Positions 829 through 29,081 of a DNA stretch of 64,000 nucleotides are shown here, piece by piece. Under the pieces are notes generated by a model. It saw only the letters and a program-made list of their open reading frames with translations. It made no database searches and was not told the origin of the DNA. How positions within the stretch are numbered: position 1 is the first letter of the stretch; each line of letters opens with the position of its first letter. Source of the DNA: a virus (Duplodnaviria; Caudoviricetes); IMG/VR virus record IMGVR_UViG_3300020048_000009, positions 64,001-128,000 of that record. One strand, given 5' to 3'. A program made the translations under genes and the position numbers.

Positions 829-2295
829 TTACACGAAAGTATCATCATCTTCGTTCATATTAGCTTCTTCTTGCTGTATGTAATCCTCAAGACTACCACT
901 GAATTTGCCGTTATGAACTAACTCATTATACTCTTTTAGGTACTGTTCTTCATCTGAACCTGTTACTTTATAACGAGGTTTGTTATCTACTTTTGGAATT
1001 CTGCTTTCTGCTGCAAACTCTTTTGATTCGCCTTTAAACCATTCCTTTATATACTCTATAAATTTTGAACGTTCAGCAGGGTTGTTAATGTTAAAGACAT
1101 CTGATTTATCTGTAGAAGGTTTGCCATTTTCAAAAACCTGGAATTGAATTTCTGCCATACCGTTATCAGGTTGAAATACTATTTGTATACCTTTTCCACC
1201 TTGCGTAGCGTCAGAATTTTCATAGAAGAATATCTTTATTCTGTTGTCTTTAAACTCTTTCTTGATTTCGTTAGACTGATAACCTTCCTTCTGATCAGTG
1301 AACCAGGTTTCATTCTTAAAGTTAAGCTGCACAGAAATGAATTCATTTAGTTCTGCTGCACTGTTAATGAATGTGGCATCACCTGTTTTTAGAGAACCAT
1401 TACCTTCATTTAGTTTAGCATACTGTTCTCTAGAACGAGCAGAATGGTTTCCTGATATTTCCCTTGCGGCTTTCTCTAATTTATCTTTAGGTATGTTATT
1501 ATATCTTTCATCTTCTTGTGATATTCTAAGTTCTTTTTCATCATCAGTTTCTTCATTTAGATTAATACTTTCAATATCTCTATTGACGTTGATATTACCA
1601 ATCGCTTTATTAACTGAATCTTTCCACTTGGCTAATTCCTGGATAAGTTCCTCTATGTTTGAACAGTCAACAGCGCCTTTATCATAATGTGCAGCGCCAT
1701 CTCTTACATTTAAATAGTCATCAATTGTTCTAGAAATGGTGTACGTATTACCTGGTTGAGTTTCTACCTCTGCGGTAAAAGTAATGTCGCCGTCTTTAGT
1801 ATAGATCTTGATTCCATAGGGTTCATCTTCTTCCATCGTCCAGTCTGAATCAAAGATATCAGCTTCATCGATCGCTCTGTATAGCTGTGCAATGTCTGAT
1901 TCGTCAGTTACTTCTTCAGGGATAGTACCAAACTCCTCACAGATGAATCCGCCCTTACCATATGTAAAGGTAATAGAATAAGGATACTGCGTTGTAACAG
2001 ATTCAGTTACAGGTTCAGGCGTCGCAGATTTCTTAGAAGTGAACAGTGGCTGGTGATTTAAAAAGTAAAAATCATAAACAAAGTCTTGAGTTACTTTTTT
2101 AGTAAGGGTATTGATATGTTTAGCATAACCCTTGTTTAGAAGTTTTGTTTTTAATTTCTTGGATTTAGATTCAGTAATTAAACTTTCAAATACCTCATCC
2201 ATTTCCTTGATGCTTAAAACTTTTTTGGATTTGATAAGAGGTGAAAATACTGATTCTAATATTGAATATTCTAAAAGATCTTGATTTGTAATCAT
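829..2295 (-). CDS. Large acidic late protein, possibly virion-associated
   Basis: Long ORF; GATAAATA box inside a CCGTTTT/AAAACGG hairpin just upstream of ATG 2295; no family recognised. Confidence 0.7.
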   Translation of the reverse strand: MITNQDLLEYSILESVFSPLIKSKKVLSIKEMDEVFESLITESKSKKLKTKLLNKGYAKHINTLTKKVTQDFVYDFYFLNHQPLFTSKKSATPEPVTESVTTQYPYSITFTYGKGGFICEEFGTIPEEVTDESDIAQLYRAIDEADIFDSDWTMEEDEPYGIKIYTKDGDITFTAEVETQPGNTYTISRTIDDYLNVRDGAAHYDKGAVDCSNIEELIQELAKWKDSVNKAIGNINVNRDIESINLNEETDDEKELRISQEDERYNNIPKDKLEKAAREISGNHSARSREQYAKLNEGNGSLKTGDATFINSAAELNEFISVQLNFKNETWFTDQKEGYQSNEIKKEFKDNRIKIFFYENSDATQGGKGIQIVFQPDNGMAEIQFQVFENGKPSTDKSDVFNINNPAERSKFIEYIKEWFKGESKEFAAESRIPKVDNKPRYKVTGSDEEQYLKEYNELVHNGKFSGSLEDYIQQEEANMNEDDDTFV

Positions 2296-2800
2296 ATGTG
2301 TATATCCCGTTTTTATTTTATTTATCACAAAACGGTATACAAATCAAGATCTTTATATTAATCCGGCAGTGAAGTAGAATCAGTATTAATTATTTCATCT
2401 TCTATGCGCAGGGTAACTTCAACCGACCTGCACCAAATACTCACCTCAACCTTAAGGTTTTCTTTTAGATATCTCTTTATTTCTTCTTTATCCATTTTAC
2501 TCCGTTCAGGTTGATAGTATTATCGCAGTCCCAATTGTGAATACGATAAATCCTACAATACCGCAAATAGCTTCTTTCATGTTTACTCCTTAGAACAACA
2601 CACATCCTGTCCAGATTGCAAGGCCGGCAAAAAAGATGATACCAATAATCTGCTGCCAATCATCGAGGCGGGGATCAGGCGTCATGATGCAAGAAAACAT
2701 TTTGAAGAGGAAGAGAATGAACATTGTAATCAGATATGCTTTCATTTGGATGCTCCTTGTTTGATTGTTATAATATTATTATAACGTAATTTCTAAAAAA

Positions 2801-19393: not shown

Positions 19394-19470
19394 GAGCTCG
19401 TAGAGGAAATGGTTAACTCATGTGGTTTTCATCCACAAGATTGCCGGTTCGAATCCGGTCGGGCTTACCA
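19394..19470 (+). tRNA. trnE: tRNA-Glu(TTC)
   Basis: Cloverleaf; TGTGG-TTTTCAT-CCACA; CCA. Confidence 0.92.
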
Positions 19471-19561
19471 TATAAGCATGACGACTAGACTAGCAATGCT
19501 TTCAGCTTATAGCTAAACTAGTGACACGGCGGAGAGCACGTCGGACAATTTTATAATTTAT

Positions 19562-19647
19562 GGATAGGTGCTCCTGAATGGTAAGGGGACGGTCTTGAAA
19601 ACCGTAGGCTAACCCCACTGCACGTTCGATTCGTGTCCTATCCTCCA
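19562..19647 (+). tRNA. trnS: tRNA-Ser(TGA)
   Basis: ACGGT-CTTGAAA-ACCGT; long V-arm; CCA. Confidence 0.9.
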
Positions 19648-19694
19648 ATTTGTGGCGCGTCACGGTGTGTGTATAAGTCGCTTCGATTTATTAT

Positions 19695-19772
19695 GGGGCC
19701 ATAACTCAGTCCGGCTAGAGTGTCTCCCTTGCACGGAGAAAGTCGGGGGTTCAAATCCCTCTGGCTCCACCA
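19695..19772 (+). tRNA. trnA: tRNA-Ala(TGC)
   Basis: G3:U70; TCTCC-CTTGCAC-GGAGA; CCA. Confidence 0.95.
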
Positions 19773-19776
19773 ATTT

Positions 19777-19868
19777 GGCTGCATTCCGGATGCAGTCGGA
19801 TCAATTCACCTGATGTACTAGAGCGAGTCAGGAATTATGAAACAGTAAAATTCTGTATCGGTCTGCCA
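19777..19868 (+). ncRNA. Structured RNA ending in CCA, not a cloverleaf
   Basis: GCTGCA/TGCAGT hairpin; CGGATC/GGTCTG; CCTGA/TCAGG; ACAG/CTGT. Confidence 0.4.
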
Positions 19869-19876
19869 ATTTATGT

Positions 19877-19952
19877 AGAACGTTCGCGTAGTGGTTAGCG
19901 CACTAGACTGTCGATCTGGATTTCACGGGTTCGATTCCCGTACGTTCTGCCA
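19877..19952 (+). tRNA. trnD: tRNA-Asp(GTC)
   Basis: CTAGA-CTGTCGA-TCTGG; G73; CCA. Confidence 0.92.
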
Positions 19953-19962
19953 TTTTAATTTA

Positions 19963-20039
19963 CGGAGTGTGGAGGCAATTGGCTGCCCACGTGCCTTGGA
20001 CGCATGGTTATGTCGGATCGTTCCCGACCACTCCGACCA
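19963..20039 (+). tRNA. trnP: tRNA-Pro(TGG)
   Basis: CGGAGTG/CACTCCG; CTTGGAC loop; atypical T-loop ATCGTTC. Confidence 0.9.
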
Positions 20040-20052
20040 ATTTTTCTAGAAA

Positions 20053-20127
20053 GCCAACTTGACTGAATGGTTAAGTACCTCATTTGTAATGAGACCCATA
20101 ACGGTTCGATCCCGTTAGTTGGCTCCA
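20053..20127 (+). tRNA. trnT: tRNA-Thr(TGT)
   Basis: GCCAACT/AGTTGGC; TTTGTAA loop; CCA. Confidence 0.9.
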
Positions 20128-20220
20128 TATTTTATATACGAAAGTAATATATTCTAAAACCGGTACTTTCTTTTCAAATATGTATACCGGCTTTAATAAA
20201 TAAAATTAAAGGAATATATT

Positions 20221-20946
20221 ATGAATACAGTAATTTGTCCAATATGTGGAAAAGAATACAAACAATTAATAGCACAACATATTTTTAAACACGGTTTGAC
20301 TATTGAAGAATTTAAACTTAAATTTCCAGATTTTTATTTAGGTAGTCCGGGTATTGAAAGTACTAGAAAAGAAAAAATGGTACTTCAATATGAAAAAGAT
20401 AATATACGATGTAAACATTGTAATAAATTAATAACATCACCAAATAGAAAACATAGAATCTTTTGTAGTACTTTATGTAAAGCTACTTATTATTCTTTTA
20501 ACAAAGAGCTTGTTCAAACAAAAGGAAAACATTTTAAAAAAATCTGTTGTGCATGTAATAAAGAATATAAAGCCTTTAGAGATAATTCTAAATTTTGTTC
20601 TAATAAATGTCAACAAGAATATATTAATGTTCAAAAAATTAAAGAATGGAAAGACGCCACAGAACAGGGAAAACCTTTTCCCTATAGAAAATGGATAAGA
20701 CATTATCTTTTTAAAAAATATGATAACAAATGCTGTAAATGTGGGTGGAGTAAGATTAATCCTTTTACAGGAAATGTTCCTTTAGAACTTGAACATATTG
20801 ATGGTAATTCAAATAACAATAAAGAAGAAAATTTAGAATTGTTATGTCCCTGTTGTCATGCCTTAACTTCCACATATAAGGGTGCAAATAGAGGTAATGG
20901 AAGATTCTCTAGAAGACAAAGATACCAAGAAGGTAAATCTTATTAA
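20221..20946 (+). mobile_element. HNH homing endonuclease with Zn-finger N-terminus
   Basis: CCKCG...LELEHIDGNSNNNKEENLELLCPCCH; ATAAATA upstream. Confidence 0.88.
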
Positions 20947-20957
20947 TAAAATTTAAT

Positions 20958-21031
20958 GCGTCTGTAGCTCAATGGTCGAGCCCGTCCTTGCCAAGGATGT
21001 TATACGAGTTCAATTCTCGTCAGATGCTCCA
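20958..21031 (+). tRNA. trnG: tRNA-Gly(GCC)
   Basis: TTGCCAA loop; U73; CCA. Confidence 0.92.
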
Positions 21032-21040
21032 ATTTAAAAT

Positions 21041-21115
21041 GTTTAATATGAGCTAATGGTAAGCTTCCAGGTTTAAAGACCCAGAGTATATAGGTTCAAC
21101 TCCTATTATTAGATA
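21041..21115 (+). pseudogene. Degenerate tRNA, anticodon unresolved (TAA or TTA register)
   Basis: D-arm and ATAGG-TTCAACT-CCTAT T-arm intact; anticodon stem mismatched; no CCA. Confidence 0.55.
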
Positions 21116-21120
21116 TTTAT

Positions 21121-21195
21121 GCGTTTGTAACTCAATTGGCAGAGTGCTGGGCTTCCAACCCGGATATACGGGATCATACCCCGTCAGATGCTCCA
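21121..21195 (+). tRNA. trnG: tRNA-Gly(TCC)
   Basis: CTGGG-CTTCCAA-CCCGG; T-loop ATCATAC. Confidence 0.88.
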
Positions 21196-21201
21196 TTTAA
21201 A

Positions 21202-21275
21202 GCGATGTTAGCAAAATGGTTATGCGGCGGTCTGCAAAACCGCTTACATGTGTTCAATTCACATACATTGCTCCA
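21202..21275 (+). tRNA. trnC: tRNA-Cys(GCA)
   Basis: GCGGT-CTGCAAA-ACCGC; U73. Confidence 0.92.
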
Positions 21276-21285
21276 TTTTATTTAT

Positions 21286-21361
21286 GCTCTCTTATTTCAG
21301 TGGCTAGAATGCTTCCTTTACACGGAAGAGGTCAGGAGTTCGAATCTCTTAGGGAGTACCA
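21286..21361 (+). tRNA. trnV: tRNA-Val(TAC)
   Basis: CTTCC-TTTACAC-GGAAG; CCA. Confidence 0.92.
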
Positions 21362-21367
21362 TTTTTT

Positions 21368-21444
21368 CGAAGTATAACTCAGTTGGTTAGAGTACCTGTC
21401 TGATACACAGAATGTCGGTGGTTCGAATCCATCTACTTCGACCA
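21368..21444 (+). tRNA. trnI: tRNA-Ile(GAT)
   Basis: CTGATAC loop; CGAAGTA/TACTTCG; CCA. Confidence 0.92.
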
Positions 21445-21451
21445 TTTTATT

Positions 21452-21535
21452 GGGACTGTGGCGTAATGGCAGACGCGCTGGTTTTAGACACCAGTGGAGA
21501 AATCCGTGAAGGTTCAAGTCCTTTCAGTCCCACCA
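21452..21535 (+). tRNA. trnL: tRNA-Leu(TAG)
   Basis: CTGGT-TTTAGAC-ACCAG; V-arm GGA-GAAA-TCC; A73. Confidence 0.92.
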
Positions 21536-21564
21536 GTTTTGTTTCATTAAAGCATATAATATCA

Positions 21565-21636
21565 GTGTATAAAAGCCAATGAATATACTACTATATTAAT
21601 ATCAATTACGCAATTGATACTGTTCTTTGAATAACA
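21565..21636 (+). promoter_or_regulatory. Promoter + hairpin + boxA-like site
   Basis: GTGTAT-N18-TACTAT; ATCAATT-acgc-AATTGAT; TGTTCTTTGAATAAC at 21621. Confidence 0.65.
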
Positions 21637-21646
21637 ATTTTTAAAT

Positions 21647-21735
21647 CGCAGGGTGGCGTAATTGGCAGCCGCAGCGGACTTAAAATCCGCTGGGTGGTAA
21701 CACCCGTGAGGGTTCGAGTCCCTCCCTTGCGACCA
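21647..21735 (+). tRNA. trnL: tRNA-Leu(TAA)
   Basis: GCGGA-CTTAAAA-TCCGC; long V-arm; CCA. Confidence 0.92.
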
Positions 21736-21994
21736 TTGATCCTTAGTTAGAAGATTGTGTTCTGTCAGCCCATCAAGATAGACGTTTGAGATCATGCCTC
21801 TTCTGGAACAAGTATATAAACTTTAAGCCTTTGAGCGGACAGGTTTATATTAAGTGAAATCCTTGATGGTCGGCGGTGTATTCCAGTCTTTTGTTTTAGT
21901 ATGATATTAATGTTTTCGTTACCTGACCGTTGGACTAAGTGCACTTCGTAAGAAGGCTCCAATCAATCAGCTTCTCCATTAACCAGCAGCATAT

Positions 21995-22071
21995 AGGCGT
22001 GTAGCTCAGCTGGTTAGAGCGGGATCCTTATAAGGTCTAGGTCGCTGGTTCAACTCCAGCCACGCCTACCA
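21995..22071 (+). tRNA. trnI: tRNA-Ile(TAT)
   Basis: GGATC-CTTATAA-GGTCT; AGGCGTG/CACGCCT; A73. Confidence 0.85.
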
Positions 22072-22088
22072 TTTTTTAGAAAGTAATT

Positions 22089-22238
22089 ATGCTTTATTAT
22101 TGGACAAGAGTTTATAATACAGGTGCTGCCCATTATTGGGAAGTAGAAAGTGAAGAAGCTTTACTTATCGCTGCAAAAGAAAAGTATGGTGAATCACTTT
22201 TTGATTATGGAATGACAACTCAAAAGAAAACAAAGTAA
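22089..22238 (+). CDS. 49-aa hypothetical protein
   Basis: Hand-translated ORF between tRNAs. Confidence 0.45.
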   Translation: MLYYWTRVYNTGAAHYWEVESEEALLIAAKEKYGESLFDYGMTTQKKTK

Positions 22239-22250
22239 ACAATTTTTAAT

Positions 22251-22332
22251 GGGAATGTATCTCCCCCGCCTTCTAAGCGGACGTTAAAAGAGTAATTGGA
22301 GTATGCAGGTTCGATCCCTGTCTTTCCCGCCA
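22251..22332 (+). ncRNA. Rearranged tRNA-Arg(TCT)-like RNA lacking a positional D-arm
   Basis: GGGAATG/CTTTCCC-G-CCA; CCGC-CTTCTAA-GCGG; GCAGG-TTCGATC-CCTGT. Confidence 0.7.
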
Positions 22333-22417
22333 TTTTAGCTAAGAGTAGTAAATATTTAATTTACTTATATATTTAAGCTGCGCTTTTAATAAATAAAATT
22401 AAGGGTATAACTTAAAT

Positions 22418-22924
22418 ATGAAAAATAAATGTCATAAATGTAATGTAGATATTCCAAACAGGGTTAAAATAGATAACTGTTGGAAAACAATTAACCATAG
22501 AAAATTTTGTTTAATCTGTTCACCGTGGGGTAAACATAATACTAAAAGCGTGGATCCTTCTAAAAGAACGCTTTCAGAAAAAGAAAGACATTCCTGGAAA
22601 AATTTAACAGATAAACAAAAAACATGTCATAAAACATCACAACATAAGAGAGCCGTTAAGCGTAAGGTTGAACTTATTAATATGCGAGGTGGGAAGTGTG
22701 AAAGATGTGGTTATGATAAATGTATTGATGTATTTCATTTTCATCATATAGATCCATCGTTAAAAACCATGAACATGGGATTAAATTCTCTATGGTGTAA
22801 ATCATGGGAAAAGATTTTACAGGAATTTGAAAATTGTAAAGTATATTGTTCTAATTGCCACATGGAAGTGCATTATGAATTAAAAAATCCTGATAATAAA
22901 CAATGTACTTTAATTTCAAAATAA
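22418..22924 (+). mobile_element. HNH homing endonuclease
   Basis: GGKCERCG...FHFHHIDP...CKVYCSNCHMEVH; ATAAATA upstream. Confidence 0.85.
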
Positions 22925-22936
22925 TATGATTAGCCA

Positions 22937-23007
22937 GTGTATAAAAAGAAGAGATTATCATATTATATATCTATCAAGTATGTACTTGAGCATGTTCTTT
23001 GACAATT
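22937..23007 (+). promoter_or_regulatory. Promoter + hairpin + boxA-like site
   Basis: GTGTAT-N18-TATTAT; TCAAGT-atgt-ACTTGA; TGTTCTTTGACAATT at 22993. Confidence 0.65.
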
Positions 23008-23029
23008 AATAGCAAATGATTTTTTTAAT

Positions 23030-23114
23030 GGAAGCGTGGCCGAACGGCTAGGCATCGGACTTTTAATCCGAGGGAGAAATCCTAACGCAGGTTCGACCCC
23101 TGTCGCTTCTACCA
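23030..23114 (+). tRNA. tRNA with Lys(TTT) anticodon on a class II long-V-arm body
   Basis: TCGGA-CTTTTAA-TCCGA; V-arm GGA-GAAA-TCC; 3-bp D-stem; A73. Confidence 0.85.
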
Positions 23115-23132
23115 TCTTTTTAGTTTTCAAAT

Positions 23133-23206
23133 TGTCCCATAGTGTAATGGCAGCACAGCACCCTTTGACGGTGTTTGTATTGGTTCAAGTCCAGTTGGGA
23201 CAACCA
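23133..23206 (+). tRNA. trnQ: tRNA-Gln(TTG)
   Basis: GCACC-CTTTGAC-GGTGT; T1:A72. Confidence 0.92.
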
Positions 23207-23208
23207 AT

Positions 23209-23282
23209 ATTCCCATGTTGTAAAGGATGCATGCGGCGCTACGAACGCTTCGGTTGGAGTTCGAATCTCTATGGGAATACCA
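23209..23282 (+). tRNA. trnR: tRNA-Arg(ACG)
   Basis: CTACGAA loop; ATTCCCA/TGGGAAT; CCA. Confidence 0.85.
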
Positions 23283-23287
23283 TTTTA

Positions 23288-23346
23288 AAGACGCAAACAG
23301 CAATTCAAATAAAAATTCACTGTTAATGAAAAAAAAAACGCGTCTT
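23288..23346 (+). ncRNA. Anticodon-stem-loop mimic (Asn GTT) in an AAGACGC/GCGTCTT stem
   Basis: TTCA-CTGTTAA-TGAA at 23316-23330. Confidence 0.5.
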
Positions 23347-23354
23347 GTTTTTAT

Positions 23355-23429
23355 AGTAGAGTAGGCAAGTGGTAATCCGCCTCCCTGTTAAGGAGGACAG
23401 CGCTGGTTCGATCCCAGCCTCTACTGCCA
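23355..23429 (+). tRNA. trnN: tRNA-Asn(GTT)
   Basis: CCTCC-CTGTTAA-GGAGG; G73. Confidence 0.92.
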
Positions 23430-23432
23430 CTT

Positions 23433-23555
23433 TGGGAACAGATGGTTAGCGCCATTTGGCATATTTATTCATGTAGTATGCCTAACCCATTTATATTTTT
23501 GATAAATAAAATAGAGGTTACGCTAAGAACCTCTTTAAAATAAAGGTAAAATAAT
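23433..23555 (+). ncRNA. Endonuclease-leader structured RNA, copy 2
   Basis: Loops TTAGCG (23446-23451) and CGCTAA (23521-23526). Confidence 0.7.
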
Positions 23556-24236
23556 ATGATTAATAAATTAGATGAATCATGGAAGCAAGTAAACGGTTTA
23601 TATAAATGTCCAATATGTAGTAAAGAGTATTCTAAAAAAGGAATTTGTTCGCATATCTTTAGATCACATACAAAAGACGGTAAATATAATTCTTTTAAAG
23701 ATAATAACAGATTATATACTTCATCGTGGAATAAAGGTTTAATAAAAGAAACAGATCTTAGAATCAAGAAATCTGGTGAGAAACTTAAAGAAAGTCTTAA
23801 CTCTGGTAAAGTAATACCACCACAAACAGGAAAACCTATTGCTCCTGAAATAAAAGCTAAAATATCCAATACGATGAAGATTGCTCATAAAGAAGGAAGA
23901 GCGTGGAATATTGGAAAGTCTAGATGGAATAACAAAGCTTCATATCCAGAAGAATTCTTTATGAAGGTTATTGAAAATGAATTTGAGGATAAGAATTATA
24001 TAAGAGAATTTAATGTTGGTATTTATTCTATAGATTTTGCATGGACCGATAAAAAGTTAGCTATAGAAATAGACGGACAACAGCATAAACGATTTGAAGA
24101 ATATAAACAGAGAGATCTTCGGAAAGATGAATGTTTATTAGAGAATGGATGGAAAGTTCTAAGAATTTTATGGATTGATATGTATAAGGATCCACACAAG
24201 TGGATTAAAATTGCTAAAGATTTTATACATAATTAA
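23556..24236 (+). mobile_element. Putative homing endonuclease, DUF559/Vsr-like nuclease with C2H2- and NUMOD-like N-terminus
   Basis: CPICSK..HIFRSH; YSIDFAWTDKKLAIEIDGQQH..RD..L..NGWKVLRI. Confidence 0.82.
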
Positions 24237-24249
24237 GAATTTTATTAAT

Positions 24250-24325
24250 GCGATTGTAGCTCAGTAGGCAGAGCGTCGGACTCTTAATCCGAAGCGCGTG
24301 GGATCATAGCCCTCCAGTCGTACCA
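24250..24325 (+). tRNA. trnK: tRNA-Lys(CTT)
   Basis: TCGGA-CTCTTAA-TCCGA; T-loop ATCATAG. Confidence 0.88.
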
Positions 24326-24363
24326 TTTTGATGTACAAGATCAGATAGACATGAGAATTTTAT

Positions 24364-24437
24364 TGCGCGGTTGAGGAGAGGCCCCTCTGCAGGCTCATAA
24401 CCTGCCTACGCCGGTTCGAATCCGGCCTGCGCAACCA
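24364..24437 (+). tRNA. trnM: tRNA-Met(CAT)
   Basis: GCAGG-CTCATAA-CCTGC; CCA; initiator vs elongator unresolved. Confidence 0.88.
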
Positions 24438-24446
24438 ATTTAACAA

Positions 24447-24597
24447 CACGGCGTGAGGAAAGAACTTGTTCTATGATTCTTAATTCGATTCTAGTAAGAT
24501 AGTACTGTCTGAACGAGGATGTTATTAAGCGGAGAACAGAAATCCTACCGGAAACATGTCCGGAAATCGCAGGTATCGAATCCTGTCGCCGTAACCA
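24447..24597 (+). ncRNA. 151-nt initiator-tRNA-like RNA with 83-nt D-loop insertion
   Basis: C1:A72 mismatch; AGGA/TCCT D-stem; CCGGA-AACATG-TCCGG; T-arm; A-CCA. Confidence 0.65.
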
Positions 24598-24603
24598 ATT
24601 TTA

Positions 24604-24679
24604 GGAGTTTTGTTGTAGATGGTTCGCAAAACGGTCTGAAAAACCGAAGGATAGGGTTCGATCCCCTGAAACTCCACCA
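24604..24679 (+). tRNA. trnF: tRNA-Phe(GAA)
   Basis: CTGAAAA loop; GGAGTTT/AAACTCC. Confidence 0.9.
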
Positions 24680-24690
24680 TTTTATTTTCT

Positions 24691-24778
24691 GGTAGTTTAT
24701 TCCGTAGGTAGTCTCGGGGCGCACTGTAAATGCGCTGGCTAATACCCTAAGGTAGTGCAACTCTATCAACTACCACCA
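24691..24778 (+). tRNA. trnY: tRNA-Tyr(GTA)
   Basis: GCGCA-CTGTAAA-TGCGC; long V-arm; T-loop TGCAACT. Confidence 0.88.
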
Positions 24779-24783
24779 GCTTT

Positions 24784-24920
24784 AAATAAGGACAGATGGT
24801 TAGCGCCATTTGGATGTTTTTCATATGACACGCCTAACTTATTTAATTATTTTTTCATATTTTTTGATAAATAAAATAGAGGTTACGCTAAGAACCTCTT
24901 AAAAATAAAGGTAAAATAAT
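24784..24920 (+). ncRNA. Endonuclease-leader structured RNA, copy 3
   Basis: AAATAAG/CTTATTT closing stem; loops TTAGCG and CGCTAA (24886-24891). Confidence 0.7.
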
Positions 24921-25457
24921 ATGAGTAAAAAATTAATTGATCGCATCGGTGCTGATAAAATCATTGAAGTCTGCAAATCTGCAAAAACATTTAAAGAAGC
25001 ATGTGAAAAACTTAACTGTGGTTATAGATATTTAATGACAGCAGCCGTTGAATTAAATGTTTTCGATGAGTTAAAGTCTAGATCTAAAGAATTTGCACAT
25101 AAATTTAAAAAGGCTGATGGTTCAAGATTATGGTTGATTAAAACTAATACGGGACAAGGCTTTACATCATACAGAACTGATACTAAAATTTGGTGTGAAG
25201 AACTTTTTAAAGGAAATCATACATCAACCGCTGTTAGAATTAAAACACATTTAATTAATGCTGGGTATAAAGAAGATCATTGTGAATGCTGTGGTATTAA
25301 TGAATGGAACAATAAGCCAATAAGTTTACAATTACATCATATAGATGGAAATTCTAGAAACAATCAGTTAGATAATTTAAAAATTCTTTGTCCTAATTGT
25401 CACGTTCAAACAGATAATTATGGTTCTAAGAATGCTCGAAATAAAGAGCGCGAGTAA
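24921..25457 (+). mobile_element. HNH homing endonuclease
   Basis: CECCG...LQLHHIDGNSRNNQLDNLKILCPNCH. Confidence 0.88.
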
Positions 25458-25473
25458 AGATTCCACCATTTTA

Positions 25474-25545
25474 GGGCAGCATGAAGGTACAAGCTCTACC
25501 TATAACTTAGGTACCTGGTGAGTTCAATTCTCATCCTGTCCACCA
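25474..25545 (+). pseudogene. Degenerate tRNA-like RNA with CCA
   Basis: GGGCAG/CTGTCC; GTGAG-TTCAATT-CTCAT; non-canonical D and anticodon regions. Confidence 0.55.
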
Positions 25546-25551
25546 TTTTAT

Positions 25552-25628
25552 GTAGCAGTAATTCAAGAGATAGAAATGCTGGGGTAATTCCTGGCGTGTT
25601 GTTGGTAAAAATCCAGCCTGCTACACCA
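25552..25628 (+). pseudogene. Degenerate tRNA-like RNA with CCA
   Basis: Perfect GTAGCAG/CTGCTAC-A-CCA; T-loop TAAAAAT; no valid anticodon loop. Confidence 0.55.
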
Positions 25629-25630
25629 CT

Positions 25631-26064
25631 TTCAGTTGTAATTCAAGCCATGTCCGATAGGGTACTTCTATATGAGCGCGCCCTATTTGTAAAGAATGAG
25701 ATAGACGAGAGTCGGCCGTAAGAGAATCCTCTGCAGGGGTTCAAAGACTAAAGACTCAGGAGGAACGTGTTACGTGAAATCCTCATTGACAAAGATCCCT
25801 AATGAACGGGAATGATAGTAAGTTAGTAAGAGAGATATTTGTGATTATGCCTTTAGTGTAACGGTTAGCACGTGGGATAATTCCCTTAGATCGGTTCGAC
25901 TCCGCAGGAAAAAACAAATCACATACAGAACCTTGTGAAATCCTTATATGGTACCTATCCAACTGAGCCATTCCAAGAATCCCCAGAGACGGTGTAGTAG
26001 GGATATACGAAGCAACACATTCATAGGCCTATCGGTGTTGTTGTAGATAGGACAAGACCGTTTC
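25631..26064 (+). ncRNA. Large structured RNA (about 430 nt) with embedded tRNA-like domain and 3' pseudoknots
   Basis: TTCAGTTG/CAACTGAG; GATAGGGTAC/GTACCTATC; GAGACGG/CCGTTTC; CCTATC/GATAGG; GCAACAC/GTGTTGT. Confidence 0.65.
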
Positions 26065-26069
26065 ATTTT

Positions 26070-26206
26070 TATACTGAGTAATGTAGAGAATTGGCAAATC
26101 AGCGGGCCAGTAGGCAAGTCTTAGAGATGCTGAAATCCGGCGGAATAACATTAGCTGGTAAGAGGTTATTCATTTATGGGTTCGAGTCCCATCATTATTC
26201 AGTGTA
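26070..26206 (+). ncRNA. tRNA-like RNA on a 14-bp closing stem with expanded anticodon region, no CCA
   Basis: CTGAGTAATG/CATTATTCAG; AATTGG D-loop-like; ATGGG-TTCGAGT-CCCAT. Confidence 0.55.
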
Positions 26207-26237
26207 TTTCTTTTTAAATTTAGTTATAATATAATTT

Positions 26238-26546
26238 ATGAAAACCAACAAATTTGTTTTTGAAATCAGTGTTGAAGGCCCAGGTTATAATGAAGAAAAT
26301 GTAGAAGAACTTTATGGTGAAGGTGCCATGTATAATCCAGATTTTTCAGAACACTCTGTAGTCATGGATGAGGTCTATGAAATCTTTAAGGATGCATTAA
26401 TGCAGCGAATGGAATTTAAAATGAATGCATTAATTAAACCTGTTCCAAATGAAGCAGCACAAAAAGCTTATCTAACTCATGTTGATGCAGCAATTGAGCT
26501 TTATAGAAAAGTTCAAGGAAGTTTAAAATTCGTTAGAAAAGAATAA
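26238..26546 (+). CDS. Hypothetical protein
   Basis: Behind GTGTAT-N17-TATAAT promoter at 26202. Confidence 0.65.
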   Translation: MKTNKFVFEISVEGPGYNEENVEELYGEGAMYNPDFSEHSVVMDEVYEIFKDALMQRMEFKMNALIKPVPNEAAQKAYLTHVDAAIELYRKVQGSLKFVRKE

Positions 26547-26552
26547 TTTATG

Positions 26553-26684
26553 GGGGTTGTTGGCTGAATAGGCATAAGCAGGGCACAAGAGGCCTGACAA
26601 AGCATAAAGGCATGTAGAAAACCGGCCGGGAATATTCTATATGTACTGTGCAGCGTGGAGGTTCGATTCCTTCCAGCCCCACCA
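26553..26684 (+). ncRNA. 132-nt tRNA-like RNA with giant variable arm
   Basis: GGGGTTG/CAGCCCC-A-CCA; class II D-arm; CATGTAGAA/TTCTATATG helix; GGAGG-TTCGATT-CCTTC. Confidence 0.65.
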
Positions 26685-26690
26685 ATTTAT

Positions 26691-26765
26691 ATAGCAGTAG
26701 TTCAATTGGCAGAATGGCGATCTCCAAAAGCGATGAAGTGGGTTCGATTCCTGCACATCCTGCCA
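26691..26765 (+). pseudogene. Degenerate tRNA-Trp(CCA)
   Basis: CTCCAAA loop, D and T arms present; acceptor strands ATAGCAG/ACATCCT do not pair. Confidence 0.6.
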
Positions 26766-26770
26766 TTTAT

Positions 26771-26849
26771 GGTAGTATTAGCTTAGTCTGGCCTAAAGCT
26801 ACGGACCGTGACTCCGTGATCGTGGGTTCGAATCCCATATACTTCCCCA
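26771..26849 (+). tRNA. trnH: tRNA-His(GTG)
   Basis: G-1:C73; ACGGA-CCGTGAC-TCCGT (C33). Confidence 0.85.
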
Positions 26850-26855
26850 AAATTA

Positions 26856-26922
26856 ATTCATAATTCGATCCCACTATTTGATAAATAAAATAAATATCAA
26901 ATAGTGGGATCGAATTATGAAT
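26856..26922 (+). repeat. Perfect 28-bp inverted repeat enclosing a late promoter and burying the next ATG
   Basis: ATTCATAATTCGATCCCACTATTTGATA / TATCAAATAGTGGGATCGAATTATGAAT. Confidence 0.9.
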
Positions 26923-27858
26923 ACTTTATTAATAAGACATTGTGAAAATTGTGGAATAGAACATGATGGAACATATGGATCTGGAAGATTTTGTTCTAAA
27001 GAATGCGCTAGAAGTTTTTCTTCTAAATTAAATACAAACATACGAAATGAAAAAATTTCAAAAACATTAAAAAATAAACATATTAGAGAAACTATATGTA
27101 AAAAATGTGGAACTATTGTATATACAAAGGGTTCTAGTCCAAATGTATGTTGTGACAAATGTAGACAAAAAAGAAAAAGCAATACCCCCTATTGTAATAG
27201 ATGTGGTGCCGAACGTGGAAAATGTAAATATCCATCTTTATGTAAAAAAAAGTTAAAATTATTTGATGGATTAGAAAAATATTTTGGATTTGATAAAACA
27301 AGTTTTGGGTCGAAAAGATATTATGAAGAAATCTTTAGAATAAAAGCAATGATAGAAGAAGATTATTATGAAAATAATAACTCAACAGTTGAATTATGTA
27401 AAAAATATAATCATACAGCATGTGGTAGTTTTATAAGAATACTAAAAAGCATTGATATTGTATTAAGAAATTTAAAAGAATCTTCATTACTGGCATATAA
27501 AACTGGTAGATCTGTTATATCAATAGATAATAGTACTCAATATAAACATGGGTGGCATACTGCATGGGATAACACACAAATATTTTATAGATCTTCATAT
27601 GAACTTGATTATGCTGAAAAATTAGATGAGCAAAAAGTAAAATATGACGTCGAAGCTTTAAGAATATCTTATTTTGATACTCAAAAATGTATAGAAAGAA
27701 CGGCAATTCCTGATTTTTATCTTCCTGAAACTAATACTATAGTTGAAATAAAATCTTCATGGACATATAATGAACAGAATATGAATGATAAAATTAAAGC
27801 TTATAAGAAGCATGGTTATAATTTTAAACTAATTTTAGATCATAAGGAAGTTGTTTAA
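26917..27858 (+). mobile_element. Putative homing endonuclease, TnsA-like PD-(D/E)xK domain with Zn-finger N-terminus
   Basis: CENCG..GSGRFCSKEC; FYRSSYELDYA...PDFYLPETNTIVEIKS. Confidence 0.75.
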
Positions 27859-27927
27859 AAAATTTATTTTTTTGCGTATAATTATAGTATACAAATAAAT
27901 TGTAATACAAATAAGGAAAACAATATT

Positions 27928-28068
27928 ATGTTAAAGAGAGATAAGCTCGGTAGATTCGTTGCTGCTAAGAAAGCACCTAAGGCTAAGCCCTGTGCACCAT
28001 GTAAACCTTCCAAGAAGGATTCATGTAAACCTTGCGCACCTAAGAAAACAAAGAAATGTTGTAAGTAA
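27928..28068 (+). CDS. 46-aa Lys/Cys/Pro-rich peptide
   Basis: MLKRDKLGRFVAAKKAPKAKPCAPCKPSKKDSCKPCAPKKTKKCCK; AAGGA RBS. Confidence 0.6.
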   Translation: MLKRDKLGRFVAAKKAPKAKPCAPCKPSKKDSCKPCAPKKTKKCCK

Positions 28069-28331
28069 TTTTCAACGTTTAGATAAATAAAAATATCAAA
28101 CCTGCGGTGCCTCTATTCGGGTGGATTTATTCCTTCGTACTGAATATGCATAATTCCGCGGGTATTTTATTTCAGGTGTACTTTTTAAATAAATCCGTGT
28201 ATTATATAATCATAACAAGTTAAATGGAGATGAGACAATGGATATTCCTTTTGCAGAATTAATGATTAAAGCTGGAGAATTGAACAAAGATACTTTCGTA
28301 ATCGATGTTGATACTCTTAGGAGATGGTTAG

Positions 28332-28547
28332 ATGAACAAAATCAAAAAGAATCAAACACAATGTAATTGTGAATCCCAATGTAATTGGGAAGTTCAAGGA
28401 ATGTCTCCTTCTCCCATACAGAATAAAACAATTGTTTTTAGAATGTCATGTGATGGTAAATACTTTACGACAACTACAAATGAAGTATCAACCCTCACCA
28501 TCTGCCCTCACTGTAATCAACCCATAACTCACCTAAACAAGGTTTAA
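28332..28547 (+). CDS. Zn-ribbon hypothetical protein
   Basis: CPHC near C-terminus. Confidence 0.55.
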   Translation: MNKIKKNQTQCNCESQCNWEVQGMSPSPIQNKTIVFRMSCDGKYFTTTTNEVSTLTICPHCNQPITHLNKV

Positions 28548-28551
28548 CATT

Positions 28552-28983
28552 ATGCGTACACAAATAGAAGGTATAAAATACGAGATGCCTGATGGCTATT
28601 ATCGCGTGACTAATAAGCTCGATATGGCCAGACGTGATGATTTAGTTTGGGGATCTTGTGAAGACCTATGGTCTAAACCTACAGGAAGACTTGATCTTGT
28701 TGGTAATTATTATGCGGTTATCCGTAAAGGTGTGAAACCTCCAAAAGTAATTAAAGAGAATTCTAAACCACCAGCTTATATAAAAGTTACTTCAGTTGAT
28801 GATATCAAAAAATATAATCTTAAAGAAGGTTCTAAGATTATTATAAACGATTTGAAATATACAATCGTTAAAATCCATTCAGCTGGTAATTATGGTTGGG
28901 GATTGTTAAGCCAACAATTTGCTATTTGTCTTATCACATCAAAACTTGAGCTTTTAATAAGCGCTTATACTCTTGGTATATAA
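28552..28983 (+). CDS. Hypothetical protein
   Basis: Co-oriented ORF. Confidence 0.65.
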   Translation: MRTQIEGIKYEMPDGYYRVTNKLDMARRDDLVWGSCEDLWSKPTGRLDLVGNYYAVIRKGVKPPKVIKENSKPPAYIKVTSVDDIKKYNLKEGSKIIINDLKYTIVKIHSAGNYGWGLLSQQFAICLITSKLELLISAYTLGI

Positions 28984-28989
28984 TTTAAT

Positions 28990-29081
28990 GGAAGTGTGGC
29001 CGAGCCTGGTTTATGGCGGCTGATTACTAATCAGCAGGGGCCTTAAAACCCCCGTAGGTTCAAATCCTATCGCTTCCTCCA
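28990..29081 (+). tRNA. trnS: tRNA-Ser(ACT)
   Basis: GCTGA-TTACTAA-TCAGC; V-arm GGGG/CCCC; U73; followed by terminator. Confidence 0.85.

What the first reader, a model, noticed from the sequence alone, without database searches (positions are those of the whole stretch)
25631..26064. About 430-nt ornate RNA with an embedded tRNA-like domain and nested 3' pseudoknots
Seen: an ORF-poor stretch closed by TTCAGTTG/CAACTGAG (25631/25960) and GATAGGGTAC/GTACCTATC, with hairpins AATCCT/AGGGGTT, GAGGA/TCCTC and TCCC/GGGA. A TGTGATT/AATCACA arm carries a tRNA-like module: D-arm GTG-TAACGGTTAG-CAC, a shrunken GGGA-TAAT-TCCC anticodon arm and CGG-TTCGACT-CCG. The 3' domain has crossing pairs ATCCC/GGGAT with GAGACGG/CCGTTTC, and GCAACAC/GTGTTGT with CCTATC/GATAGG. 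Established: GOLLD and ROOL are large phage-associated RNAs found next to tRNAs. Inference: a member of that class or a new one.
Basis: partly seen in the sequence, partly recalled or inferred. Interest (0 to 1): 0.74.

Follow-up and report, generated by a model that had tools for sequence, protein, structure and literature searches.

The report
Conserved handle RNA in phage tRNA arrays
The flagged stretch is not one giant ornate RNA: it holds two copies of a small, previously uncatalogued folded RNA found in the tRNA gene clusters of about fifty uncultured phages, which joins a highly conserved "handle" loop to a swappable arm that is often a tRNA look-alike and whose function is unknown.

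Summary
Rfam 15 gives no GOLLD, ROOL, group I intron, tmRNA or YrlA match here. Folding energy is no better than that of shuffled sequence.

The 3' "nested pseudoknot" part (25971-26066) is missing from near-identical relatives in two other metagenomes. Their break points fall exactly at the CCA at 25968-25970.

The stretch 25632-25970 contains two copies (25695-25787 and 25826-25947) of a repeated motif. The motif has four copies in this 212-kb distant T4-like phage. Its layout is: stem P1, AUAGA, arm P2, GAAC, a short linker or hairpin P3, GUGAAAUC, then the return strand of P1.

An exact-box search found about 50 IMG/VR phage contigs with it. Nearly all copies lie inside tRNA arrays on the tRNA strand. 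Only one real hit turned up in 596 Gb of cellular genomes. P1 and the closing pair of P2 covary.

P2 is a plain hairpin, a non-decoding tRNA look-alike, or a circularly permuted one. In one relative the whole arm is swapped. No Ro60 gene accompanies the motif.

The build resembles Y RNAs (YrlA) and, by position, T4's stable RNAs C and D. Function is unknown, and a docking platform is my best guess. The scan had already noted this same stretch as "four copies of a three-way-junction ncRNA".

The parts
25632..25638 (+). 5' strand (UCAGUUG) of a 7-bp acceptor-like closing stem. It starts 3 nt after the CCA of the preceding tRNA-like gene (25552-25628) and is followed by UAAUUCAAG, which also follows the 5' acceptor strand of that neighbour.
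   Evidence: Shared UAAUUCAAG read from the sequence. No covariation available.
25656..25687 (+). Local hairpin GAUAGGG...CCCUAUU with a variable apex (25662-25680).
   Evidence: MFE. Relatives X5 and X7 keep both strands but carry indels and substitutions in the apex.
25695..25787 (+). Motif copy c3. P1 is AAUGAG/CUCAUU (25695-700/25782-787). AUAGA is at 25701-05. GAAC is at 25763-66 and GUGAAAUC at 25774-81.
25796..25811 (+). Small hairpin UCCC-UAAUGAAC-GGGA between the two copies.
   Evidence: No comparative support.
25814..25818 (+). GAUAG, a candidate partner of CUAUC (25955-59). It would extend P1 of c4 outward and stack on the acceptor-like stem (5+7 = 12 bp).
   Evidence: Sequence inspection and constrained fold. 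Inference only.
25826..25947 (+). Motif copy c4. P1 is GUAAG/CUUAU (25826-30/25943-47). The 5' box is the variant AGAGA (25831-35). U25836:A25927 closes P2. The P2 stem is UGUGAUU/AAUCACA. GAAC is at 25928-31 and GUGAAAUC at 25935-42.
   Evidence: Paralog c1 aligns to it.
25845..25915 (+). Non-decoding tRNA-like domain inside P2 of c4: D arm GUG-UAACGGUUAG-CAC, GGGA-UAAU-UCCC in place of the anticodon arm, and a 3-bp T stem with loop UUCGACU.
   Evidence: Low-threshold ARAGORN. nhmmer paralog at genome 61941-62055. In relative X7 exactly 25842-25927 is replaced by a different 88-nt tRNA-like cassette.
25955..25970 (+). CUAUC, then the 3' strand of the acceptor-like stem CAACUGA, then G and CCA. 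This is a unit boundary.
   Evidence: Joints at 25970 (X5) and 25972 (X7) in contigs of two independent studies. All tRNAs of this array encode CCA.
25971..26066 (+). It is not part of the conserved RNA. Its 3' half resembles the 5' half of tRNA-Phe (24604).
   Evidence: Absent in X5 and inside the 222 nt absent in X7. Repeats D16 and D18. z = -1.59.
21770..21869 (+). Motif copy c2, between tRNA-Leu(UAA) and tRNA-Ile: P1 CCAUCAAG/CUUGAUGG, AUAGA at 21778-82, short P2, GAAC, long P3 hairpin, GUGAAAUC at 21854-61.

Best explanation
The stretch 25632-25970 is a composite non-coding unit of the phage tRNA array. It carries two copies (c3 and c4) of a conserved, phage-specific structured RNA module.

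Each module is a closing stem (P1) and an arm (P2), joined by an asymmetric internal loop of nearly invariant sequence. The 5' side of the loop is AUAGA. The 3' side is GAAC, then 3-7 nt or a hairpin, then GUGAAAUC. The arm is freely exchangeable and is often a tRNA look-alike that keeps the D/T elbow but has no anticodon.

Inferred mechanism:
- The modules are co-transcribed with the tRNAs.
- They are released by the enzymes that cut out the flanking tRNAs.
- They persist as stable non-decoding RNAs.
- The invariant loop folds into a compact module rich in T-loops. This module serves as a docking site for a conserved cellular partner: a tRNA elbow, RNase P or another tRNA-handling factor.
- The arm presents a tRNA-shaped surface, which is the two-module logic of a Y RNA.

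For: Shown:
- Four + strand copies in the 212-kb genome share the boxes while P1 differs and still pairs.
- The exact-box pattern in IMG/VR gave 104 matches. Of these, 37 have P1 of 5 bp or more, against about 5 expected by chance. Almost all of those also carry an independent GAAC box.
- A similar pattern that also required the GAAC box, run on 596 Gb of cellular genomes, gave 31 matches. All but one look like chance, and the one real match sits beside 4 tRNAs.
- My scanner found 83 hits in real sequence against 4 in reversed sequence.
- In 46 loci every ARAGORN tRNA lies on the motif's strand. A tRNA often starts 10-20 nt downstream.
- The P1 covariation score is 0.642, against 0.175 when shuffled (0 of 500 shuffles reached it) and at most 0.22 when slid.
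- The base after AUAGA covaries with the base before GAAC: C:G 33, U:A 12, out of 54.
- The boxes are nearly invariant even in secondary copies that the search pattern did not select.
- The arm is modular. It is a hairpin, a normal-order tRNA-like domain, or a permuted one in T arm, acceptor hairpin, D arm order. In relative X7 the arm of c4 is swapped while the handle is kept.
- No Rfam family matches.

Lead for the docking idea: AUAGA (AGAGA in c4) and UGAAA fit T-loop pentamers. They flank a variable helix, as the AG..A and UG..A T-loops of RNase P J11/12-J12/13 do (PMC3664808).
Against: - There is no expression or processing data: no RNA run holds the sequence.
- Folding energies are unremarkable.
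- P1 of 4 bp or more was a selection criterion for the alignment. Only its outer pairs and the raw hit statistics are independent of that.
- Position 2 of the first pentamer is U in most copies, whereas the described double T-loop core has an invariant G. The extra GAAC box has no counterpart there.
- No partner was identified.
- A few copies lie outside tRNA arrays (c1, and L122 in a 45.6-kb phage with no tRNAs). Release by tRNA processing therefore cannot be general.
- c4 has a weak P1 and a variant 5' box.
Confidence: 0.5

Rival explanations
1. One large RNA: 25632-25970 (339 nt) is a single 'giant cloverleaf'. It is closed by a 7-bp acceptor-like stem with G73-CCA, and the two motif copies and two hairpins are its arms. 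RNase P and 3' trimming would process it like a tRNA, and it would function as a whole. This is the nearest surviving form of the first reader's idea.
For: - It starts 3 nt after the preceding CCA and shares UAAUUCAAG with that tRNA-like neighbour.
- It ends in GCCA, like every tRNA of the array.
- Break points in two relatives fall at 25970 and 25972.
- CUAUC abuts the acceptor 3' strand, giving a 12-bp stack of the same length as acceptor plus T stem.
Against: - Acceptor-like stems followed by NCCA are common by chance here.
- The model is 14 kcal/mol worse than the MFE, and z = -0.97.
- No covariation is available.
- Tandem pairs in other phages (L092, L113, L114) are not enclosed by such a stem or followed by CCA.
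Confidence: 0.2
2. A Y RNA: the handle is the binding site of a Ro60/Rsr-type ring protein (phage or host). The tRNA-like arm tethers a second factor, as in YrlA.
For: - The architecture is the same: a terminal stem with a conserved loop plus a tRNA-like domain. This includes the permuted order T arm, acceptor hairpin, D arm.
- There is a weak partial YrlA hit of 19.3 bits on a permuted copy.
- YrlA-type RNAs occur in phages (PMC4201824).
- Earlier notes of this scan report Ro60-like genes beside handle RNAs in other phages.
Against: - No TROVE domain in this genome or in 23 motif-bearing records, 3 of them complete.
- The Rsr motif GNCGAAN0-1G is absent from the boxes.
- The Rfam YrlA model is far below its 69-bit cut-off.
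- No ORF of the complete 45.6-kb phage G021 is shared with the three large phages.
Confidence: 0.1
3. A processing or cis-acting element: the module is a self-cleaving ribozyme, a nuclease entry site or a leader. It punctuates the long tRNA transcript or controls the tRNA that follows 10-20 nt downstream.
For: - It lies on the same strand as the tRNAs and close upstream of them.
- Tandem pairs sit at the distal end of arrays, just before a sigma-70-like promoter.
- It has a three-way-junction topology with GA/GA flanking P2, loosely like a hammerhead.
Against: - No ribozyme family matches, even at E<=10.
- The boxes do not fit the hammerhead core.
- Copy c1 stands alone between two terminators, 21 kb from the array.
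- L122 lies between protein genes.
Confidence: 0.12
4. Decay products: the region is a graveyard of duplicated, degenerating tRNA genes and homing-endonuclease scars, with no function of its own.
For: - The surroundings hold many aberrant tRNA-like genes and partial duplications.
- 25971-26066 contains a tRNA-Phe-like half and is dispensable.
Against: This cannot explain near-invariant boxes with covarying flanking stems across about 50 unrelated phage contigs, nor the retention of the handle while the arm is swapped.
Confidence: 0.05

Closest known systems
YrlA / bacterial and phage Y RNAs (Rfam RF02553; Chen et al. 2014, PMC4201824)
   Same: Two-module build: a stem formed by the 5' and 3' ends carries a conserved protein-binding loop, and there is a tRNA-like domain without an anticodon. 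The permuted copies have the same order (T arm, acceptor-like hairpin, D arm). Some have ACCA in the hairpin loop, which recalls M. smegmatis YrlA being cut by RNase P and given CCA.
   Different: The conserved boxes (AUAGA, GAAC, GUGAAAUC) are unrelated to GNCGAAN0-1G. No Ro60/TROVE gene was found in any of 24 phage records. The YrlA covariance model does not reach its threshold. Many copies carry a normal-order tRNA-like arm or only a hairpin.
T4 stable RNAs species 1 and 2 (rnaC, rnaD)
   Same: Small stable RNAs of unknown function, encoded on the tRNA strand at the distal end of a T4-type phage tRNA cluster, with tRNA-like T-arm or CCA features. The tandem pairs in L092, L113 and L114 occupy the same position.
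   Different: The T4 sequences contain none of the three boxes, so there is no detectable homology.
[quoted passage not shown] 2013, PMC3664808)
   Same: Two purine-rich pentamers that fit the T-loop pattern (A-U/G-A-G-A and U-G-A-A-A) flank a variable helix, in the same order as in RNase P. The UG..A signature is kept in the variants GUGGAAUC and UUGAAAUC. Copy c4 has AGAGA.
   Different: Most copies have U, not the invariant G, at position 2 of the first pentamer. There is an additional conserved GAAC box. No 3D evidence exists. This is a resemblance, not a tested membership.
GOLLD (RF01998) and ROOL (RF03087)
   Same: Phage-associated non-coding RNA next to tRNA genes.
   Different: No model match. 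The unit is 60-130 nt and modular rather than 600-800 nt. The 430-nt span does not behave as one conserved unit.

Membership tests
GOLLD / ROOL | Match to the Rfam covariance model | tested here: not met
   No hit at the gathering score or at E<=10 over 24400-27000.
Group I intron | Match to RF00028, with P3-P9 core elements interrupting a tRNA | tested here: not met
   No hit at E<=10. No split tRNA exons flank the region.
YrlA (RF02553) | Covariance-model score of at least 69 bits | tested here: not met
   No hit on the window's copies or on c1. Best score 19.3 bits on the permuted copy of L114 and 21.7 bits on an unrelated tRNA pair.
YrlA (RF02553) | Encoded next to a Ro60/Rsr (TROVE) gene | tested here: not met
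   PF05731 is absent from the own genome and from 23 motif-bearing phage records. The controls gave hits.
YrlA (RF02553) | GNCGAAN0-1G motif near the 5' end | tested here: not met
   The 5' box is AUAGA(Y). No such motif appears in the aligned copies.
YrlA (RF02553) | tRNA-like domain in the order T arm, acceptor hairpin, D arm | tested here: inconclusive
   Met by the permuted copies of other phages (L030, L040, L092, L113, L114, L257). Not met by the four copies of this genome.
Canonical tRNA (RF00005) | Cloverleaf with a 7-nt anticodon loop and a score of at least 29 bits | tested here: not met
   No RF00005 hit in 25631-26064. ARAGORN finds one only at -ps80, with a 2-nt 'anticodon'.
Double T-loop (elbow-docking) module | Invariant AG..A and UG..A pentamers flanking or facing each other | tested here: inconclusive
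   UG..A is met in all copies. The first pentamer is AUAGA in most copies and AGAGA only in c4. The criterion is taken from PMC3664808.
Double T-loop (elbow-docking) module | Interdigitated 3D fold that stacks on tRNA G19:C56 | not testable with these tools
   No RNA 3D prediction or binding assay is available here.
T4 rnaC / rnaD | Sequence similarity to the T4 species 1 and 2 RNAs | tested here: not met
   The boxes are absent from NC_000866 70908-71171.
Known self-cleaving ribozymes (hammerhead, twister-sister, hatchet, pistol, HDV-like) | Match to an Rfam model | tested here: not met
   No such hit at E<=5-10 on the window's copies or on copies from six other phages.

The most novel reading that the evidence does not exclude
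The invariant AUAGA / GUGAAAUC loop is a free-standing double T-loop platform. That would make it a fourth natural instance of the tRNA-elbow docking module of RNase P, T-box leaders and the ribosomal L1 stalk. Phages would deploy it inside their tRNA arrays to grasp tRNAs, or the tRNA-shaped arms of sister copies. Possible purposes are chaperoning or protecting pre-tRNAs, or building RNA-only assemblies.
Probability: 0.15. Interest if true: 0.85.

Novelty: new variant of a known kind. Interest (0 to 1): 0.6.

Why it matters
Large phages carry tRNA arrays whose non-tRNA contents are almost unexplored. T4's RNAs C and D have had no known function for fifty years.

A strongly conserved, phage-only RNA handle that repeatedly recruits tRNA-shaped arms, in both normal and permuted order, points to a recurrent and still unknown RNA function. 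That function is probably tied to tRNA handling during infection.

The finding gives a concrete, small (about 60 nt minimal) target for structure determination and partner pull-downs. It also gives a sequence signature for annotating these elements, which tRNA finders currently miss or call as odd tRNAs.

Tried and rejected
- **Rfam.** Scans at the gathering score and at E<=10 on the window, on c1 and on copies from other phages returned only tRNA hits and noise.
- **Close relatives.** I found none through BLAST against 50,697 phage records with the region or its 102-aa neighbour. Exact-peptide scans with the neighbour and the DNA polymerase also found none. The HNH gene at 22418 only led to other mobile endonucleases.
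- **tRNA-like arm.** A pattern for it found nothing.
- **Cultured phages.** I found no example. BLAST with copies from other phages gave only partial hits to tRNA-like pieces in phiAS5, D479 and bumzen, and the two fetched loci (phiAS5, D479) lack the boxes.
- **Sequencing runs.** No RNA holder is listed, so nothing can be said about expression.
- **Longer spacing.** The range 93-123 nt is mostly chance and added only 4 new members.
- **Relaxed scan.** Allowing more box mismatches in the own genome gives results close to the noise level, so only four copies are credible.
- **MAFFT.** The variable arm does not align usefully, so I did not build a covariance model.
- **Shared phage protein.** No ORF of the complete 45.6-kb phage G021 has a tblastn match in G000, G008 or G014.
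- **Proteins next to c1.** The two roughly 500-aa proteins have no Pfam or PHROG assignment. I did not fold them.
- **Literature.** Searches for the box sequences and for tRNA-array RNA motifs found no description. The unnamed 8,495 IMG/VR candidates of PMC10690425 could include this motif, and I could not check.

Full report
**Setting.** The window is bases 64001-128000 of a 211,678-bp IMG/VR virus contig, estimated 84% complete. Its DNA polymerase is only about 29% identical to those of cyanomyoviruses and other T4-type phages. Positions 19394-29081 form a + strand array of 24 ARAGORN tRNAs, all with an encoded CCA. The array is interspersed with HNH and other homing-endonuclease ORFs. The finding lies in an ORF-poor gap (25458-26237) that follows one such HNH gene.

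**Checking the observation.** As a single 434-nt RNA, however, the region folds no better than shuffled sequence. The z-score is -0.18, and -0.97 for 25632-25970. Rfam 15 gives no GOLLD, ROOL, group I intron, tmRNA or YrlA match at the gathering score or at E<=10.

The closing helix is followed by G-CCA, so it looks like an acceptor stem. A scan shows that 7-bp stems followed by NCCA occur by chance about 25 times in this 12-kb region, so the helix alone proves nothing.

**Evidence from near-identical relatives.** Contigs of four public metagenome runs were laid on 24600-26300.
- A wetland contig joins 25970 directly to 26067.
- A 33.6-kb lake contig joins 25972 to 26195.

Both relatives keep GATAGGG and CCCTAT, but carry indels and substitutions throughout 25662-25680. 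This fits a local hairpin and not the proposed long-range GATAGGGTAC/GTACCTATC helix.

In the lake contig, 25842-25927 is replaced by a different 88-nt tRNA-like cassette while its flanks are kept. This segment is the tRNA-like arm.

**What is really there.** A note from another reading of this stretch spoke of "four copies", so I searched the genome for paralogs.
- nhmmer found one at genome 61941-62055.
- The word GTGAAATCC marks four + strand copies: c1 (L026 about 1926-2047, standing alone between two terminators), c2 (21770-21869), c3 (25695-25787) and c4 (25826-25947).

All four copies share one layout:
- stem P1
- AUAGA (AGAGA in c4)
- arm P2
- GAAC
- a short linker or a hairpin P3
- GUGAAAUC
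- the return strand of P1

P1 differs between copies and still pairs: CAGAG/CUCUG, CCAUCAAG/CUUGAUGG, AAUGAG/CUCAUU and GUAAG/CUUAU.

AATCCT/AGGGGTT is the tip of P2 of c3. GAGGA/TCCTC competes with the conserved P1 and 3' box of c3.

**A widespread family.** The exact pattern AGATAGAY-N62-92-GTGAAATCCT matched 104 places in IMG/VR.
- 37 of them extend P1 to 5 bp or more, against about 5 expected by chance. Nearly all of these also carry an independent GAAC box within 25 nt of the 3' box.
- A stricter pattern on 596 Gb of bacterial and archaeal genomes gave 31 matches. Thirty look like chance hits in coding sequence. The single real one lies beside four tRNAs.
- My scanner found 83 hits in the fetched loci, against 4 in reversed sequence.
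- The longer spacing range of 93-123 nt added only four members.
- In 46 loci every ARAGORN tRNA is on the motif's strand. A tRNA often begins 10-20 nt downstream.
- Rfam sees only tRNAs in these loci.

**Structure evidence.** On an alignment of 38 copies, P1 has a covariation score of 0.642. Shuffles gave 0.175 (none of 500 reached the observed value) and slid partners gave at most 0.22. The caveat is that P1 of at least 4 bp was a selection criterion, so the raw hit statistics above are the independent test.

The base after AUAGA covaries with the base before GAAC: C:G 33 and U:A 12, out of 54. This fixes the 5' side of the loop at exactly five nucleotides.

Minimal copies are about 58 nt. 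The core is therefore an asymmetric internal loop between P1 and P2.

P2 takes one of three forms:
- a plain hairpin;
- a normal-order tRNA look-alike with a GC-rich stem and a short loop in place of the anticodon arm;
- a circularly permuted look-alike in the order T arm, acceptor hairpin, D arm.

Three of the permuted copies have ACCA at the start of the hairpin loop.

In three unrelated phages, a normal-type and a permuted-type copy sit in tandem at the end of the array, directly before a sigma-70-like promoter.

**Comparison with known RNAs.**
- *YrlA.* It has the same two-module logic and the same permuted tRNA-like order (PMC4201824). But its Rsr motif is absent, its model scores at most about 20 bits, and no TROVE gene occurs in this genome or in 23 other motif-bearing records.
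- *Shared phage protein.* No ORF of a complete 45.6-kb motif-bearing phage is shared with three large ones. A conserved phage-encoded partner is therefore unlikely, and a universal cellular one is more plausible.
- *T4 rnaC and rnaD.* They occupy the same position in their array but lack the boxes.
- *Double T-loop module.* AUAGA/AGAGA and UGAAA fit T-loop pentamers and flank a variable helix. The AG..A and UG..A T-loops of the RNase P J11/12-J12/13 module do the same, and that module docks the tRNA elbow (PMC3664808). This is a lead and not a test: most copies have U where that module has an invariant G, and the GAAC box has no counterpart there.

**Whether 25632-25970 is one RNA.**
- *For:* it starts 3 nt after the previous CCA. 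It shares UAAUUCAAG with the neighbouring 77-nt tRNA-like gene. It ends in GCCA. Its 3' end coincides with the break points in the relatives.
- *Against:* a family-consistent "giant cloverleaf" (acceptor stem, hairpin, c3, small hairpin, c4 arm abutting the acceptor 3' strand) costs 14 kcal/mol more than the MFE. Tandem pairs elsewhere are not enclosed in this way.

I give this model about 0.2.

**Verdict.**
- The GOLLD/ROOL reading is rejected.
- "A new class" survives as a smaller, modular, phage-specific RNA family associated with tRNA arrays and unmatched in Rfam 15.
- Its identity as a conserved structured RNA is well supported.
- Its mechanism (a stable, processing-released RNA whose invariant loop is a docking platform) is inference.
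- The scan had already flagged this same DNA in another reading.

Noticed in passing
window 25552-25628: A 77-nt cloverleaf with a 7-bp acceptor stem, A73-CCA, and D and T arms. The anticodon arm is replaced by a 9-bp stem capped by a UAAU tetraloop (z = -2.9), so it is a non-decoding tRNA look-alike. Its 5' end (GUAGCAG-UAAUUCAAG) is paralogous to the start of the 339-nt unit and to 26692-26771.
   Followed up: partly
window 24691-24778: A probable class II tRNA-Tyr (anticodon loop CUGUAAA) with CCA. Default ARAGORN and Rfam both miss it, and it is found only at a lowered threshold.
   Followed up: partly
window 26553-26684: A 132-nt RNA with a GGGGUUG/CAGCCCC acceptor stem, a perfect T arm and ACCA. 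It gives a weak tmRNA hit (18.7 bits, E = 6e-5), and ARAGORN reads it as 'tRNA-Pyl(CUA) with a 49-nt intron'. It is neither a standard tRNA nor a tmRNA.
   Followed up: no
window 26074-26203: A tRNA-like gene with an extra insert of about 50 nt (Rfam tRNA 23.5 bits) and no CCA. Most of it is absent from the lake relative (joint 25972->26195).
   Followed up: partly
window 24449-24598: A 150-nt tRNA-like RNA with a T arm, an acceptor stem, ACCA and a long internal hairpin. ARAGORN at low threshold reads it as Val(AAC) with an intron.
   Followed up: no
window 25462-25473, 24673-24684 and 25539-25550: The 12-mer TCCACCATTTTA (a tRNA 3' end plus spacer) recurs three times, once directly after the stop codon of the HNH gene at 24921-25457. 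This looks like a footprint of the endonuclease cassette inserting between tRNA genes.
   Followed up: no
window 26855-26923: A near-perfect hairpin of about 30 bp directly after tRNA-His, overlapping the start of the endonuclease ORF at 26917. It draws spurious microRNA hits. Together with 24822-24878 it belongs to a repeat that precedes endonuclease genes.
   Followed up: no
L092 9908-10383 (-), L113 4434-4901 (+), L114 12144-12620 (+): In three unrelated phages a normal-type copy and a permuted-type copy of the motif sit in tandem at the end of the tRNA array. A TTGACA-N17-TATAAT-like promoter follows at once. The P3 hairpins of normal-type copies often carry a GAC(G) loop.
   Followed up: partly
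L187 5600-6100 (Aeromonas phage phiAS5, 181,000-181,450): An unannotated intergenic stretch holds several tRNA-like RNAs with long inserts, about 2.3 kb downstream of a 477-aa gene annotated 'RNA-binding protein'. It does not contain the AUAGA/GUGAAAUC boxes, so it may be a different handle-RNA system.
   Followed up: no
L026 2191-3723 (-) and window 829-2328 (-): Two proteins of about 500 aa with no Pfam or PHROG family lie next to the stand-alone motif copy c1, on the opposite strand.
   Followed up: partly
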